A DNA stretch of 8,353 nt from a virus (Duplodnaviria > Heunggongvirae > Uroviricota > Caudoviricetes), in the IMG/VR virus record IMGVR_UViG_2877274432_000004. The stretch is one strand, 5' to 3'. A program made the position numbers and the translations under genes. Shown here in pieces: positions 1,271 through 8,353 of this stretch. Below the pieces are notes generated by a model. That model was not told the DNA's origin, ran no database searches, and saw only the letters and a program-made list of their open reading frames with translations. Position 1 is the first letter of the stretch. Each line of letters opens with the position of its first letter.

Positions 1271-2167
1271 ATGACAAACAAAAAGATAAACCTTCCTGAA
1301 AGGGATTATTACCCGTTAGACAAGGCAGCCAGAAGGCTTGGGTGTGACGTTGATGATTTGATTCACTTCATCGCTACAGGGAAGATGTGTTTTTGGTACC
1401 GTCATCACATAGACGAGGTTTTGACATTACATAATTATAAAAACGCATTTAATAGTGTATCAGCATCAGATTATTATTATGAAAATGATGAAGGCGTATT
1501 CATCAGAGCAACCGACATATTAAAATTACTTGAATTCTCATCTTTTGGTGAAAAAATAATAACCGATGAAGAACAGCTAACGGAAAAGATATTTTTTAAT
1601 TGCTGTGGCGGTTATTCTGAAACAGATATTTTTATATACAACTATCATGGATATAAACAAAGAAAAATCAGAACACAGTTACCACATAAAATCAGGGTTG
1701 TGGCTTCAGGACTTTTACAGGTATTTAATACAAGCATTGATATAGAGAATCTATCAAATGACGTCACAGATTGTTATGTGCGACGCATCGTTATAGCAGA
1801 TAAAGGAAAAGAACCAAAGATAACAATAAATTTATATGGCAAAACAATAAATATTAGTGACATTTTCATCTCAAAAGAAGAGATAAAAATAGTAATGAAC
1901 GGCGGCAGACAACCAGGAGATATGGTAAAGGATTTTTCAGATAAACACGCCTTGTCGCATTCGCAGAGTAAGAAAACAACCAATCTTCAGGCCAGAGTTA
2001 TCAAAAGACTAATCACCGCCATAGCCGGAGAAGAAGAGGCAGCAAACCCAAGAAGAGCGCTTGAGAACGGTCACAGCAAGTTAAGCCGCGCACTAACCAA
2101 AGCAGGGGTTGAAATTGGCGCAACCCCTTCATCTGTTGGTAAGTGGCTTGCAGACGTTGACGACTGA
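1271..2167 (+). CDS. Hypothetical protein, 298 aa, AT-rich cargo gene directly downstream of int; possible N-terminal HTH; function unknown
   Basis: Long ORF starting 4 nt after the int stop (weak SD AAGGG). Central part about 22-28% G+C in hand-counted 60-nt samples (1441-1500, 1801-1860) versus about 48% in int (1021-1080). Followed by a strong intrinsic terminator. No family recognised. Confidence 0.7.
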   Translation: MTNKKINLPERDYYPLDKAARRLGCDVDDLIHFIATGKMCFWYRHHIDEVLTLHNYKNAFNSVSASDYYYENDEGVFIRATDILKLLEFSSFGEKIITDEEQLTEKIFFNCCGGYSETDIFIYNYHGYKQRKIRTQLPHKIRVVASGLLQVFNTSIDIENLSNDVTDCYVRRIVIADKGKEPKITINLYGKTINISDIFISKEEIKIVMNGGRQPGDMVKDFSDKHALSHSQSKKTTNLQARVIKRLITAIAGEEEAANPRRALENGHSKLSRALTKAGVEIGATPSSVGKWLADVDD

Positions 2168-2508: not shown

Positions 2509-2851
2509 TAAATTTCCATGTGTGACATATAAAAGCCACCAGCGCAGAAAATAAAACGCCTCACGTTATGCAAAACGGGTTAACCATCGTGATGCCTTGC
2601 CGCATTCAATTAACGGCAGGTAAAAAAATACCCGCAATGCAATAACACTACGGGCCATTAACGTAATATAAGGAGTTAACCGATGTGTATTGTATACAGT
2701 CGTGTGCATATTGTCACAGGCAACAGGCATCCGCGCCAAATACCCGCCAGAGAAAATCAGTTGATCGCCAGTATCAAAAATGGCTATGATTCCCGCACAC
2801 CTTATAAAACGGGTGTCGGGATTAGGACCCCGCTGACAATCGAGGCGATAC

Positions 2852-2874
2852 AGACGCCGAACGCGTCTTTTTTT
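2852..2874 (+). terminator. Intrinsic terminator-like hairpin plus U-run upstream of the first structured leader
   Basis: AGACGC-CGAAC-GCGTCT hairpin (2852-2868) followed by a 7-T run (2868-2874). It lies inside an open frame that starts at ATG 2683. Confidence 0.5.
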
Positions 2875-3228: not shown

Positions 3229-3412
3229 AAACATGTTGCTCGCCTCTTCTTTCGGGCTGTATGATGCCGGAGTCGTCCACATGGCGACCGGGTTTGACAG
3301 CCTGAATACTACAGCGGACAGCCGCTTACATTCCGATATGCGGTTTTTTTGTGTCCGTAAGCCTACCCATACCCGCATTATGGCGGGGCGTAACGGGGGA
3401 GCCTTTGCGCTC

Positions 3413-3433
3413 GCTGGTTCCTGTAGTGCCAGT
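3413..3433 (+). promoter_or_regulatory. Leader hairpin 2 (same stem GCTGG/CCAGT, different loop) complementary to the SD region of the second small ORF
   Basis: Loop CCTGTAGTG (3420-3428) is the exact reverse complement of CACTACAGG (3496-3504), overlapping SD ACAGGAG of the ORF starting at 3515. Pairing extends to 13 bp with one G-U (3416-3428 versus 3496-3508). Confidence 0.4.
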
Positions 3434-3514
3434 CTGTCAACCCTGTTACGTCTCGCCACCATGTTTGACAGCGTAGTAGCGAGACTCCTTAATTTCACTA
3501 CAGGAGCCTTTCAC

Positions 3515-6719: not shown

Positions 6720-6832
6720 GCACAGGACAGGAACAGTCAGCCGGATTTTCTGATTGTGTGCGTGTATATCGTTTTATCGCGACGTTAAATTAAACTGGTA
6801 TGACCAGATACACCAACATAAGAGGCTACCGG

Positions 6833-7240
6833 ATGAACGATCAAAACCATCACGCACCAAAAGACATTGAGCGGATTAAATTCATAAATGACATAGACGG
6901 CGGAGACAAACCCGGCGAGGCATGGTGTGATTCGCTTGCTGATATCGTGTCTCATTCAGTGGCTGAGCTTACCCGTAATGGCATGGAGCAGTCTGAAGCC
7001 TTCAGAATCGCCAAGCAGGTTGTTGCTGCAATCGCCTTCTATGCTGGTGGGCGAAGTCTTTACCTTCCAACAGGCAGATCACTTTTTGTAGCATTGCGCG
7101 AATACGAGATTTACCACAGGTGGGATAACGGCGAAAAATTACAGGAATTACGCAAAGAGTACGCAATATCAGAAACCCATATTTACGACATCATCCGGCG
7201 ACTAAGAAAGAAGCACGCCAATAAAATCACGCAAGACTAA
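6833..7240 (+). CDS. Mor-family (Mu middle-operon-regulator-like) transcriptional activator
   Basis: 135-aa ORF from ATG 6833 (SD AGAGG, 7-nt spacer); alternative start at 6800. C-terminal HTH-like region LREYEIYHRWDNGEKLQELRKEYAISETHIYDIIRRL is typical of Mor/C-type activators. Confidence 0.7.
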   Translation: MNDQNHHAPKDIERIKFINDIDGGDKPGEAWCDSLADIVSHSVAELTRNGMEQSEAFRIAKQVVAAIAFYAGGRSLYLPTGRSLFVALREYEIYHRWDNGEKLQELRKEYAISETHIYDIIRRLRKKHANKITQD

Positions 7241-7374
7241 CCACAGACACCAGCAGCAACCGTTATATTTGCGCCGCTATCGCAAAAATCCCCTTTCAGG
7301 GCATCCACTGATGCTACAAAACACCAAAACGCATCAGAGAGCGAATCAGGCGCTTTAATGGTGATTTGTTTTTT

Positions 7375-7440
7375 GTGAAAAAAGGTGAAAGAAGCTGATT
7401 TTTGTGAAATTAAGCGAAATCACGTGAAATCAGGTGAAAT
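7375..7440 (+). repeat. Array of six (G)TGAAA(T) direct repeats with roughly 10-bp phasing; candidate protein-binding array (regulatory or packaging)
   Basis: GTGAAA 7375, GGTGAAAG 7384, TGTGAAAT 7403, GCGAAAT 7414, CGTGAAAT 7423, GGTGAAAT 7433. Non-coding: stops in all frames. Confidence 0.5.
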
Positions 7441-7516
7441 AATGATACCCGTTCATCTGGTGCTACCAGACGAAACAGACTTTACCCACGCATAACGCAT
7501 GATTACTATTTTGCCT

Positions 7517-7616
7517 GGCTGTATGGTGTACTCTTAATCGGTAAAGCGGCACCCGCTTGTATAGCTTCCAGAAAGCGGGATGTTTATGTGGGTTCGACCC
7601 CCACCACCAGCAACCA
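7517..7616 (+). other. tRNA-like element, copy 1 (degenerate 5' half; intact T-arm plus acceptor 3' strand)
   Basis: T-stem GTGGG (7588-7592) / CCCAC (7600-7604) with T-loop TTCGACC, followed by CACCAGCA. Shares a ~33-nt block with copy 2. Not a canonical tRNA. Confidence 0.3.
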
Positions 7617-7635
7617 ACAACCTCATTGCTTTTTT

Positions 7636-7717
7636 GCTGGTGTACGCTCAACGGGTAGAGCCGGTGCCAGCCTGTACAGGCTGATCATGTATGCGGGTTC
7701 GACCCCCGCCACCAGCA
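7636..7717 (+). other. tRNA-like element, copy 2: acceptor, D-arm and T-arm are tRNA-like but the anticodon arm is replaced by a perfect 16-nt palindrome
   Basis: Acceptor GCTGGTG (7636-7642) pairs with CACCAGC (7710-7716). D-arm GCTC-AACGGGTA-GAGC. T-arm GCGGG-TTCGACC-CCCGC (7693-7709). Central CAGCCTGTACAGGCTG is a perfect palindrome rather than a 7-nt anticodon loop. No encoded CCA. Confidence 0.35.
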
Positions 7718-7921
7718 CACCAAAACGAGCGCCACATCAACCAGCATTAAAACCGCCCTAAAACCATTTTCAAACTTTCGACAGCGCATACATGAACGCC
7801 ATCGGTTTGCATGTGCACATTGATACCCGTTATCGACGATCAAACAGCAAGGGTATCTTTTTCAAAAAAGGCATACAAAAAGGCATACAAAACGAAAATC
7901 AAAAACACATAATTAATATAA

Positions 7922-8353
7922 ATCAATGGAATAACCAATCAATTCATAGACATCCCGGGTCTGAAATTGCCGCTGTTTGACGGTGGACGGTTGAATGCCA
8001 ATCTCGAAGGCACGCGCGCCGCCAGCAACATGATGATTGAACGTTACAACCAGTCAGTACTGAACGCGGTGCGTGACGTTGCCGTCAACGGCACGCGTCT
8101 GCAAACGCTCAACGACGAGCGAGAAATGCAGGCTGAACACGTGGAAGCAACGCGCTTCACCCAGCGCGCTGCCGAGGCCGCCTATCAGCGCGGCTTAACC
8201 AGCCGCTTACAGGCCACTGAAGCCCGGTTGCCAGTACTTGCCGAAGAGATGTCATTACTGATGCTGGACAGCCGCCGGGTGATCCAAAGCATTCAGTTGA
8301 TGAAATCGCTGGGCGGCGGGTATCAGGCGGCTCCCGTCGTCGAGAAAAAATAA
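7922..8353 (+). pseudogene. 3' fragment of a TolC-family (OMF/NodT-type) outer-membrane efflux protein gene; 5' part absent from this locus, apparently displaced by the island
   Basis: Frame open from 7922 (after TAA at 7919-7921); the ORF track's first start is TTG at 7967. Translation (IDIPGLKLPLFDGGRLNANLEG ... LMKSLGGGYQAAPVVEKK) matches the C-terminal region of outer-membrane efflux factors. Upstream is AT-rich non-coding DNA, so the gene has no N-terminal two-thirds here. Confidence 0.75.

What the first reader, a model, noticed from the sequence alone, without database searches (positions are those of the whole stretch)
7517..7717. Two tandem tRNA-like elements near the island end, with a compensatory T-stem change and a palindrome in place of the anticodon arm
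Seen in sequence: copy 2 (7636-7717) has a perfect 7-bp acceptor stem (GCTGGTG/CACCAGC), D-arm GCTC-AACGGGTA-GAGC and T-arm GCGGG-TTCGACC-CCCGC, but its central region is a perfect 16-nt palindrome (CAGCCTGTACAGGCTG) and no CCA is encoded. Copy 1 shares the 3' ~33 nt; its T-stem is GTGGG/CCCAC, so the only differences inside the T-arm are a compensatory pair (T-A versus C-G). Its 5' half is degenerate. It matches no standard enterobacterial tRNA I can recall. Inference: these could be stacked att-site remnants from serial integration at a tRNA-like target, a decoy or secondary attachment site, or a structured tRNA-like RNA used by the satellite.
Basis: partly seen in the sequence, partly recalled or inferred. 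Interest (0 to 1): 0.55.

Follow-up and report, generated by a model that had tools for sequence, protein, structure and literature searches.

The report
Anticodon-less tRNA mimics tied to phage RNase
The two "tRNA-like" elements are real genes for tRNA-shaped small RNAs that cannot decode, members of an undescribed RNA family that Mu-like phages always encode right behind a predicted tRNase-type domain of their injected head protein F, which suggests (untested) that the RNAs are uncleavable tRNA decoys that neutralise that nuclease.

Summary
Window 7517-7615 and 7635-7717 are two full tRNA-shaped units. The acceptor, D and T arms and the tertiary-contact bases are kept; the anticodon arm is replaced by a capped hairpin; no CCA is encoded.

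They are not att remnants. The island's integrase targets the 3' end of a tRNA-Ile gene, with mdtP as a secondary site, and the units share nothing with that core.

They belong to a structurally constrained RNA family: 94% of cells paired against 41-50% in controls, and 16 of 17 pairs covarying. The family occurs in only two contexts. In Mu-like phages there is a single copy on the opposite strand, directly after gene F. In Mor-encoding islands like this one there are arrays of 2-3 different subtypes.

In phages the RNA gene and the F C-terminal domain (MuF-C, a predicted BECR-fold RNase) are exchanged as one cassette. Of 80 loci with a MuF-C domain of this type, 77 have the RNA. Phages whose MuF-C lacks the catalytic histidines (Mu, SfMu, Pseudomonas phages, L346) lack the RNA.

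Best reading (inferred): RNase-resistant tRNA mimics that bind or neutralise MuF-C, with the island array acting as an "orphan immunity" set. No description was found in the literature searched.

The parts
7481..7509 (+). Predicted promoter of the array: -35 TTTACC (7481-7486), 17-nt spacer, -10 TACTAT (7504-7509). The predicted start is G7517, the first paired base of unit 1.
   Evidence: Read from the sequence. It is too weak for the generic scanner. Across 47 family members a -10-like hexamer peaks 6-7 nt before the first paired base (22 of 47, against about 1-3 per offset elsewhere; 32 of 47 within 5-9 nt). Transcription itself was not tested.
7517..7615 (+). Unit 1 (subtype A2). Closing helix GGCTG-TAT-GGTG (7517-7528) with CACC-AG-CAACC (7605-7615); UAC linker; D-arm 7532-7547; central arm 7549-7583 (10-bp stem with one bulge, 14-nt loop 7559-7572); variable loop TTAT; T-arm 7588-7604.
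   Evidence: Family model R1 scores it 75.6 bits. PGAP annotates the equivalent element in L001 and L085 as 'tRNA-OTHER'. Fold. The same unit has a perfect GCTGGTG 5' strand when it is second in the L252 array.
7616..7634 (+). Conserved U-rich spacer between units (AACAACCTCATTGCTTTTT). It has no -10 box of its own, so unit 2 is probably cotranscribed and released by processing.
   Evidence: The same spacer consensus lies between all units of the 2- and 3-unit arrays (L001, L084, L241, L247, L250, L252). Processing is inferred.
7635..7717 (+). Unit 2 (subtype B). An 8-bp closing helix TGCTGGTG/CACCAGCA; D-arm 7646-7661; central hairpin CAGCCU-GUAC-AGGCUG (7668-7683) on a short proximal stem; variable loop GUAU; T-arm 7693-7709.
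   Evidence: Rfam tRNA 37.5 bits. R1 82.6 bits. PGAP calls it 'tRNA-Tyr' because of GUA in the tetraloop. It is 85% identical to the single-copy element of E. coli Mu-like prophages, with three compensatory acceptor pairs.
6800..7240 (+). mor-family activator gene, the invariable upstream neighbour of the array in all islands (module SSB-PerC-Mor-array).
   Evidence: Pfam Mor, E=2.7e-24. It is 49% identical to the Mor of the Mu-like prophage that carries the RNA. The module is kept in islands with different integrase and replication genes. A functional link to the RNAs was not tested.

Best explanation
The two elements are units of a small operon of non-decoding, tRNA-shaped RNAs. Each unit folds into a genuine tRNA L-shape: closing/acceptor helix, D-arm, T-arm, and the tertiary-contact bases U8, A14, G18, G19 and the T-loop (A15 and U48 are kept in most members). 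Each has a sealed hairpin where the anticodon loop should be, so it cannot read codons. They belong to an RNA family whose home is Mu-like phages. There one copy, with its own promoter, lies on the opposite strand directly after the stop codon of head protein F. The C-terminal MuF-C domain of F is a predicted BECR-fold (colicin D/E5/RelE-like) RNase that is packaged in the virion and injected. The RNA gene and MuF-C are swapped between phages as one cassette and are lost together. I therefore propose that the RNA is the cognate partner of MuF-C. The most likely mode of action is as an uncleavable tRNA mimic that occupies the nuclease and neutralises it, that is, an RNA 'immunity'. The island encodes no F. 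Its array collects one unit of each subtype found in E. coli-type Mu-like phages (here A2 and B; A1, A2 and B in L252), like an orphan-immunity array, and this would blunt the injected RNase of several phage alleles. What is shown: the structure, the family, the two contexts, the cassette linkage and the co-loss. What is inferred: transcription and processing, binding to MuF-C, inhibition, and the benefit to the island. My split of confidence is: real structured non-decoding RNA genes about 0.9; functional coupling to MuF-C about 0.7; inhibitor/immunity mechanism about 0.4.
Confidence: 0.45

Rival explanations
1. The RNA is a partner of MuF-C but not an inhibitor. It could be a cofactor or cargo that F binds and co-packages or co-injects, or a substrate that F processes. 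The island units would then act as competitors that titrate F or hitch a ride with it.
For: The same linkage and co-loss data support it as support the main model. Iyer et al. suggest an RNA-binding role for MuF-C even when it is inactive. Most phage loci have no terminator after the RNA.
Against: The RNA is lost exactly where the catalytic residues are lost, although an RNA-binding role was proposed for the inactive domain. A sealed anticodon arm fits a non-substrate better than a substrate. This reading is not distinguishable from the main model with these tools.
Confidence: 0.2
2. It is a cis-antisense regulator. The RNA, perhaps extended into the 3' end of F, pairs with the late F-G mRNA to tune or silence head genes. 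Island copies would act in trans on a helper phage's late mRNA. The tRNA shape would only give stability or processing sites.
For: The RNA lies on the opposite strand between F and G. The divergent cassette extends about 110-260 nt into the 3' end of F. Island unit 2 and the E. coli phage locus share 30 nt of perfect identity.
Against: The invariant bases are precisely the tRNA tertiary-contact positions, which antisense pairing does not need. L006 terminates right after the element. The central arms of the island units do not match the phage arms. This reading does not explain the correlation with the MuF-C catalytic residues.
Confidence: 0.12
3. It is a general tRNA decoy or sponge unrelated to F. 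For example it could be an anti-defence RNA against host tRNA-targeting nucleases (PrrC, RloC, retron-PtuAB, PARIS-type), or a titrator of tRNA-processing enzymes, carried as a moron by phages and islands.
For: The unit is self-contained with its own promoter, like a moron. It occurs away from F in L216. Phage-encoded tRNAs that counter anticodon nucleases are known (my own knowledge).
Against: The positional linkage to MuF-C is near-absolute (77 of 80 loci) and the two are lost together. Anticodon nucleases recognise anticodon loops, which these RNAs lack.
Confidence: 0.12
4. They are genuine or decaying decoding tRNA genes (PGAP: tRNA-Tyr and tRNA-OTHER).
For: Rfam tRNA scores above gathering for unit 2. 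PGAP annotates them as tRNAs in E. coli genomes.
Against: ARAGORN finds nothing. None of the more than 60 variants has a 5-bp stem with a 7-nt loop. No CCA is encoded. The discriminator base and acceptor pairs 1-3 are not conserved. The 'Tyr' call comes from GUA inside a GUAC tetraloop. Strong purifying covariation argues against decay.
Confidence: 0.03
5. They are att-site remnants or decoy attachment sites.
For: The island's integrase does use a tRNA 3' end (tRNA-Ile) as its primary target.
Against: The att cores were identified and are unrelated to the units. The units lie inside the island and recur in islands with other integrases, and in transposable Mu-like phages that do not integrate at tRNAs.
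Confidence: 0.02
6. It is a Y-RNA-like (YrlA) module formed across the junction of the two units.
For: There is a weak YrlA match of 17.9 bits spanning the unit 1 T-arm to the unit 2 D-arm. The minimum-free-energy fold of the tandem transcript prefers pairing of the unit 1 3' strand with the unit 2 5' strand.
Against: The score is far below the gathering score of 69. Any tandem tRNA pair gives this pattern. The window has no Ro60/Rsr gene. Phage loci carry single units that cannot form the permuted module.
Confidence: 0.03

Closest known systems
Canonical tRNA (Rfam RF00005)
   Same: Acceptor-type helix, D-arm with G18 and G19, T-arm UUCGA, U8-A14 and A15-U48 positions, short variable loop. 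Unit 2 scores above the Rfam gathering score.
   Different: There is no anticodon loop; a sealed hairpin of variable length and sequence takes its place. The closing helix is 8-14 bp and starts at the predicted transcription start. An extra C follows U8-A9. No CCA is encoded and there are no conserved identity elements. ARAGORN does not detect the units.
Type III toxin-antitoxin systems (e.g. ToxI RNA / ToxN endoRNase; own knowledge)
   Same: A structured RNA is encoded next to an endoribonuclease and is proposed to neutralise it by direct binding. The RNA occurs as tandem repeat units (in the islands). The setting is phage conflict.
   Different: The nuclease here is a BECR-fold domain fused to a virion protein, not a ToxN/AbiQ-type toxin. 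The RNA is tRNA-shaped, 80-100 nt and single-copy in phages, and is transcribed convergently with F from the opposite strand. Inhibition is untested.
Polymorphic toxin-immunity cassettes, including MuF-fused BECR toxins with downstream immunity proteins (Zhang et al. 2012 PMC3482391; bioRxiv 10.64898/2026.08.28.747851)
   Same: A variable C-terminal nuclease domain is followed directly by a co-varying small gene. The two are exchanged as a cassette. Arrays of extra 'immunities' occur in elements that lack the toxin.
   Different: The adjacent gene is an RNA, not a protein, and is on the opposite strand. The alleles are variants of one homologous domain and not unrelated toxin folds.
[not shown]
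   Same: The concept is the same: a BECR tRNase is blocked by a mimic of its tRNA substrate.
   Different: Here the mimic would be an actual RNA of tRNA shape.
YrlA / bacterial Y RNAs and the tmRNA tRNA-like domain
   Same: They are non-decoding RNAs that keep the tRNA elbow (T-arm and D-arm) to engage tRNA-binding factors.
   Different: YrlA is circularly permuted and partners with Ro60; tmRNA carries a tag reading frame and partners with SmpB. Neither partner nor architecture is present here.

Membership tests
Canonical tRNA | Cloverleaf with acceptor, D and T arms and conserved tertiary-contact bases | tested here: met
   Rfam alignment. U8, A14, G18, the T-loop UUC and the three T-stem G-C pairs are invariant, and G19 is nearly so. 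Covariation.
Canonical tRNA | 5-bp anticodon stem with a 7-nt anticodon loop | tested here: not met
   Unit 2 has a 6-bp stem with a GUAC tetraloop; unit 1 has a 10-bp stem with a 14-nt loop. No family member has a 7-nt loop. ARAGORN finds nothing.
Canonical tRNA | 3' CCA (encoded in all E. coli tRNA genes) and conserved discriminator and identity pairs | tested here: not met
   The sequence after the acceptor strand is A-CAC (unit 2) and A-ACC (unit 1). Across the family the discriminator is A, C, G or U, and pairs 1-3 vary freely. Post-transcriptional CCA addition is not testable here.
tRNA-derived att-site remnant | Sequence identity with the integrase's target core, duplicated at the island ends | tested here: not met
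   The att cores are CAGCAGGG(G)CCACCA (tRNA-Ile site) and CATCCCGG(G) (mdtP site). The units share only 7-8-nt chance words with them.
YrlA / Y RNA | Rfam RF02553 at gathering score, and a Ro60 (Rsr) partner gene | tested here: not met
   17.9 bits against a gathering score of 69. There is no TROVE/Ro60 gene among the window ORFs.
MuF-C-associated tRNA-like RNA (family defined here, model R1) | High score with the family covariance model, clearly separated from ordinary tRNAs | tested here: met
   Units score 75.6 and 82.6 bits. The members collected first score 64-93 bits and ordinary phage tRNAs 47 or less. Both units were in the seed alignment, so their scores are partly by construction. 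Non-seed members score 52-90 bits.
MuF-C-associated tRNA-like RNA (family defined here, model R1) | Located directly after a MuF-C-encoding F gene, on the opposite strand | tested here: not met
   The window and all related islands have no F or MuF-C homologue. Here the units follow mor. This is the second, 'orphan' context of the family.
Type III toxin-antitoxin / RNA immunity to an RNase | RNA gene adjacent to, and co-inherited with, an endoribonuclease gene | tested here: met
   [not shown]
Type III toxin-antitoxin / RNA immunity to an RNase | The RNA binds the nuclease and neutralises its toxicity | not testable with these tools
   This needs co-expression and toxicity rescue, binding assays and RNase assays.
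Polymorphic toxin-immunity cassette | The immunity determinant is a protein encoded co-directionally downstream of the toxin domain | tested here: not met
   No ORF fills the 121-132-nt F-G gap. The gap is occupied by the RNA gene on the opposite strand.

The most novel reading that the evidence does not exclude
A tRNA-shaped RNA with its anticodon loop sealed off serves as the cognate, allele-specific 'immunity' to the colicin-D-like RNase domain (MuF-C) that Mu-like phages package in their heads and inject. That would be an RNA substrate-mimic antitoxin for a BECR nuclease. Mor-encoding islands would then carry arrays of orphan immunity RNAs (subtypes A1, A2, B) to disarm the injected nuclease of several phage lineages, either as an anti-phage defence or as a satellite's way of taming a helper. 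This would also give the first functional handle on the enigmatic C-terminal domain of the classical phage Mu F protein family.
Probability: 0.35. Interest if true: 0.88.

Novelty: new variant of a known kind. Interest (0 to 1): 0.78.

Why it matters
There are four reasons. (1) It defines a widespread, strongly covarying RNA family that Rfam captures only as a marginal 'tRNA'. Genome pipelines mislabel it as tRNA-Tyr or tRNA-OTHER in at least 168 complete E. coli genomes, and no description turned up in the literature searched. (2) It links that RNA to MuF-C, a predicted BECR RNase in the head protein of Mu-like phages whose target and role are unknown. The linkage, the cassette exchange and the co-loss with the catalytic histidines turn an open question into simple experiments: toxicity and rescue, binding, and cleavage of tRNA. 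(3) If the RNA is an inhibitor, it would be the first tRNA-shaped RNA immunity to a tRNase-fold toxin, mirroring the tRNA-mimicking immunity protein of colicin D and extending RNA-antitoxin logic beyond ToxIN-type systems. (4) The island arrays, with one unit per phage subtype, suggest a new kind of RNA-based interference between small integrative islands and Mu-like phages. No satellite of such phages turned up in my searches.

Tried and rejected
- The genome-contig scan with TATGYGGGTTCRANYCCCRC was too degenerate.
- The search for related loci with the island Mor in viral contigs found nothing.
- Six literature searches found no description of the RNA: tRNA-like with Mu-like, phage satellite, transposable phage, or decoy; tRNA mimic with phage defence; satellite with Mu-like and Mor.
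- The generic promoter/terminator scanner found nothing on the + strand. The promoter call rests on the family-wide spacing analysis instead.
- A PDB sequence search with MuF-C found nothing.
- The YrlA/Y-RNA idea was rejected, as was the att-remnant idea.
- A His identity element (G-1:C73) was considered for the 8-bp acceptor of the phage RNAs. It was rejected because the helix length and discriminator vary.
- Allele-specific antisense pairing between island units and the phage mRNA was considered. It was rejected because the distal arms do not match.
- Co-residence of the island and the Mu-like prophage in the same genome could not be tested properly. The place counts give no sign of it.
- The Helicobacter (L261), Pasteurella AFS-2018a (L265) and L345 gaps contain tRNA-like hairpins, but these score too low to count as members.

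Full report
**1. The observation**

Unit 2 (7635-7717) has:
- a perfect acceptor helix, GCTGGTG/CACCAGC, extendable to 8 bp;
- D-arm GCTC-AACGGGTA-GAGC;
- T-arm GCGGG-TTCGACC-CCCGC;
- the perfect 16-nt palindrome CAGCCTGTACAGGCTG (7668-7683) in place of an anticodon arm;
- no encoded CCA.

The T-arm of unit 1 differs by a U-A versus C-G double change. The Rfam tRNA model scores unit 2 at 37.5 bits (gathering score 29) and unit 1 at 20.6 bits. ARAGORN finds nothing.

One correction is needed. Unit 1 (7517-7615) is not a half-degenerate copy. It is a complete paralogue of a different subtype, with its own D-arm and a 10-bp central stem carrying a 14-nt loop.

**2. What the window is, and why the units are not att remnants**

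The window is an ~8.3-kb integrative island. Its genes, in order, are: integrase, a 298-aa ORF, AlpA, Ash, Icd-like ORFs with isrK and two C4 antisense RNAs, DUF4222, a RepA-type helicase, SSB, PerC, Mor, and then the two units.

In the window and in E. coli JNEC-KY203 (L001) the island interrupts mdtP at a core CATCCCGG(G). In strain JNEC-KY179 (L085) the same island sits at the 3' end of the tRNA-Ile gene next to mug, with CAGCAGGG(G)CCACCA at both ends. That tRNA is therefore the primary target, and mdtP is a secondary site.

The units lie 235-440 bp inside attR and share only 7-8-nt chance words with any att region. A related island with a different integrase and a toprim/DUF927 replication module (L084, next to dinD) keeps the SSB-PerC-Mor-units block. 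The units are cargo, not scars.

**3. A family shared with Mu-like phages**

Unit 2 is 85% identical to an element annotated 'tRNA-OTHER' in Mu-like prophages of about 155 complete E. coli genomes. There it lies between the virion-morphogenesis gene G and the head-morphogenesis gene F, on the opposite strand. The phage copy has acceptor GTCAGTG/CACTGAC, which is three compensatory pairs away from unit 2, and a different central hairpin closed by UCCG.

Motif scans of viral and metagenome contigs and a covariance model built from 18 members (R1) define the family:
- Members collected first score 64-93 bits.
- Ordinary phage tRNAs score 47 bits or less.
- The window contains exactly two hits, at 75.6 and 82.6 bits.

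**4. The structure is under selection, and the RNA cannot decode**

Two covariation tests were run.

| Alignment | Cells paired | Slid controls | Pairs changing on both sides |
|---|---|---|---|
| Core alignment, central arm excised | 90.4% | 40-55% | 11 of 19 |
| 48 distinct, far more divergent members | 94.2% | 41-50% | 16 of 17 |

The search patterns did not constrain the acceptor positions in the first alignment. The second alignment was fitted to the model, which biases it towards the structure, but the margin over the controls is large.

G-U pairs fit only the tRNA-sense strand. The invariant or nearly invariant bases are the ones that build the tRNA elbow and core: U8, A14, G18 and G19, the T-loop UUC with nearly invariant R57 and A58, and the three G-C pairs of the T-stem.

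By contrast, the central arm is hypervariable in sequence and length (19-46 nt). It always folds as one sealed hairpin, often with a UUCG, UCCG or GNRA-type cap, and never has a 7-nt loop. The discriminator base and acceptor pairs 1-3 are not conserved, and no CCA is encoded. A conserved aminoacylation identity is therefore unlikely. PGAP's 'tRNA-Tyr' label comes from GUA inside the GUAC tetraloop.

**5. Own promoter**

A -10-like hexamer sits 6-7 nt before the first paired base in 22 of 47 members, and within 5-9 nt in 32 of 47. Other offsets have about 1-3 members each. This holds even where the closing helix is 12-14 bp long, and several members have extended -10 boxes.

In the window this gives TTTACC-17-TACTAT (7481-7509), with a predicted start at G7517. 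Unit 2 has no -10 box of its own and follows a conserved U-rich spacer, so it is probably cotranscribed with unit 1. L006 has an intrinsic terminator directly after the element. Expression itself was not tested.

**6. Only two contexts, and modular arrays**

Every member found lies in one of two places:
- as a single copy between F (Pfam Phage_Mu_F plus MuF_C) and G in Mu-like phages, including distant ones with F at 43-64% identity;
- as an array of two or three units right after SSB-PerC-Mor in islands.

The island arrays are modular:

| Array | Loci |
|---|---|
| [A2, B] | window, L001, L085, L247, L250 |
| [A1, B] | L084, L241 |
| [A1, A2, B] | L252 |

The promoter-proximal unit always carries the interrupted 5' strand GGCTG-TAT-GGTG, whatever its central arm. 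The A2 unit has a perfect acceptor stem when it is second in the array.

Nearly identical E. coli Mu-like phages (portal and G at 97-98% identity) carry A1, A2 or B as alternative alleles at the same locus. The islands therefore collect one unit of each subtype that the phages carry singly.

**7. The mechanistic lead: coupling to the C-terminal domain of F**

*Cassette exchange.* Between phages with different RNA alleles, the divergent tract is sharply bounded. It runs from about -50 (the promoter) to about +350 (the RNA plus the last ~85 codons of F), with at least 90% identity outside it. The last 20-25 residues of F differ for each RNA subtype.

*What the domain is.* This region is Pfam MuF_C. 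Iyer et al. 2017 (PMC5512222) make four relevant points:
- They note that BECR toxins often cleave tRNA or rRNA.
- They describe phage Mu's own copy as catalytically inactive.
- They predict that orthologues with an intact active site are RNases.

*Catalytic residues track the RNA.* In my alignments every RNA-bearing phage has H-[AT]-[DN]-S-x-[KR]-H at the start of the domain. The invariant residues are K9, H13, S16, H19, W46, D47, N52, Y55, D82, N86 and Y88. Phage Mu, SfMu and a Yersinia Muvirus have a 7-residue deletion there, lack H13, S16, H19, N86 and Y88, have F and G overlapping by 4 nt, and have no RNA. Pseudomonas phages VAC1, JBD5 and CF53b likewise have no motif and no RNA.

*Wider test.* Pasteurella phage Pmp9 has the motif and a 62-bit RNA that abuts the F stop codon. 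Of 80 viral loci fetched with a MuF-C alignment, down to 36% identity, 77 have a model hit. The hit is always on the opposite strand just after F. The three exceptions are:
- L288, where F is disrupted;
- L345, a very divergent locus with a tRNA-like hairpin in its 120-nt gap;
- L346, the sister of the RNA-bearing L317, which has lost both histidines and the N-x-Y residues and has G starting 9 nt after F. This is an independent co-loss.

I saw no phage with the RNA and an inactive MuF-C.

*Precedent.* A 2026 preprint places PBECRs in the colicin-like group, with the active His preceded by a Lys, as here. It also reports that another MuF-fused BECR family has a downstream putative immunity protein.

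**8. Interpretation**

*Shown:*
- a structurally constrained, non-decoding tRNA-shaped RNA family with its own promoter signal;
- a near-absolute positional link to MuF-C domains that keep the catalytic motif;
- exchange of the RNA and the domain as one cassette;
- joint loss of the two;
- islands that carry arrays of the RNAs without any F gene.

*Inferred:* the RNA is the cognate partner of the MuF-C nuclease. The most economical mechanism is substrate mimicry. A tRNA body would dock on a tRNase-fold domain, and the sealed arm would offer nothing to cut. This would protect the producing or lysogenic cell. In the islands it would blunt the injected nuclease of several phage alleles, like an orphan-immunity array.

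*Precedents:* the tRNA-mimicking immunity protein of colicin D (my own knowledge) and type III RNA antitoxins.

*Alternatives that the data do not exclude:*
- the RNA is a cofactor or cargo of F;
- it is a cis-antisense regulator of the F-G mRNA;
- it is a general tRNA decoy unrelated to F.

*Weak points:*
- there are no functional data;
- MuF-C activity is only predicted;
- the structural scores are modest;
- adjacency confounds the co-variation;
- the sampled loci are not phylogenetically independent;
- L216 and L208 carry the RNA away from any F gene.

**9. Novelty and verdict**

I found no description of this RNA in the searchable literature, and Rfam has no dedicated family for it. Each ingredient has precedents: tRNA mimics, RNA antitoxins, and toxin-immunity cassettes. 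I therefore rate it a new variant of known kinds, not categorically new. The combination is unexpected and directly testable: a tRNA-shaped RNA coupled to a virion-borne BECR nuclease, with orphan arrays on islands.

The option of a 'structured tRNA-like RNA used by the satellite' is supported.

Noticed in passing
window 2797-2873, 2898-2985, 3376-3463: There is an isrK-like RNA (59 bits) followed by two C4 antisense RNA copies (78 and 72 bits). They are interleaved with Ash and two Icd-like ORFs. This is a duplicated P1/P4-type RNA immunity region in the island.
   Followed up: no
window 7360-7445: A run of at least seven GTGAAA / GGTGAAA motifs at roughly 10-12-nt spacing lies between mor and the RNA array. 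It is conserved in L001, L084, L085 and L252. It could be iterons of the RepA-helicase replicon or regulator binding sites.
   Followed up: no
window 7456-7470: A perfect dyad TCTGGT-GCT-ACCAGA is centred about 54 nt upstream of the predicted start of the array. It is a candidate activator site (Mor?). It is conserved in all island variants read.
   Followed up: no
window 7869-7892 and about 7951-7960; L001 4350-4372, 4213-4222; L085 2218-2232, 10562-10576: Tandem AGGCATACAAAA repeats lie near both island ends and are probably arm-type integrase sites. The primary attB is the 3' end of the tRNA-Ile gene next to mug. The window shows a secondary insertion that splits mdtP at CATCCCGG(G), a partial mimic of the tRNA core.
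   Followed up: yes
window 7443-7453 and 7821-7831; 7823-7862: The direct repeat TGATACCCGTT flanks the array region on both sides. The second copy is the left arm of an inverted repeat GATACCC...GGGTATC followed by TTTTTC, which could be the terminator of the array transcript (fold).
   Followed up: no
E. coli complete genomes: PGAP annotates these non-decoding RNAs as 'tRNA-Tyr' (unit 2) and 'tRNA-OTHER' (unit 1 and the prophage copy), or leaves them unannotated. About 168 of 5426 complete genomes are affected, so tRNA gene counts and codon-usage inferences there are slightly wrong.
   Followed up: partly
L216 2291-2369 and L208 13255-13333: This is the exception to the F-G context. The RNA lies in an AT-rich stretch next to a DUF2971 gene, in an element where a Mor-like gene directly precedes a gpT-type major head gene. 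No F, G, portal or protease lies within 9-14 kb. It may be a different, capsid-gene-bearing Mu-related element.
   Followed up: partly
L340 and L342 1838-1999; L237 1203-1623: Some phage loci carry two RNA units. L340 and L342 have them in tandem after F. In L237 two units flank a 51-aa F fragment, suggesting duplication or recombination at this locus.
   Followed up: no
L085 10297-10313; L206, L207, L217, L219, L220, L222; L247 unit 2: There are recurrent T-loop variants: A58 to C (GGGTTCGCCCCCC) in several independent contigs, and G57 to A in L209 and L210. They may be tolerated polymorphisms or inactivated copies.
   Followed up: no
L261 2445-2527 (-), L265 1655-1778 (-), L345 1439-1560 (-): The F-G gaps of a Helicobacter apodemus prophage, Pasteurella phage AFS-2018a and one divergent viral contig contain tRNA-like hairpins, with a T-arm-like stem-loop, a long closing helix and a -10 box. 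They score too low with R1 to be counted. If real, the RNA-MuF-C pairing reaches the Epsilonproteobacteria.
   Followed up: partly
window 7516-7722: The minimum-free-energy fold of the whole tandem transcript pairs the 3' acceptor strand of unit 1 with the 5' strand of unit 2, a 'swapped' YrlA-like topology. The acceptor sequences of all island units are homogenised to GCTGGTG/CACCAGC, unlike those of any phage allele. It is unclear whether this is functional or a by-product of unequal recombination.
   Followed up: partly
window 1271-2167: A 298-aa ORF next to the integrase has no Pfam match. It is conserved in the related islands, where it is annotated as hypothetical.
   Followed up: no
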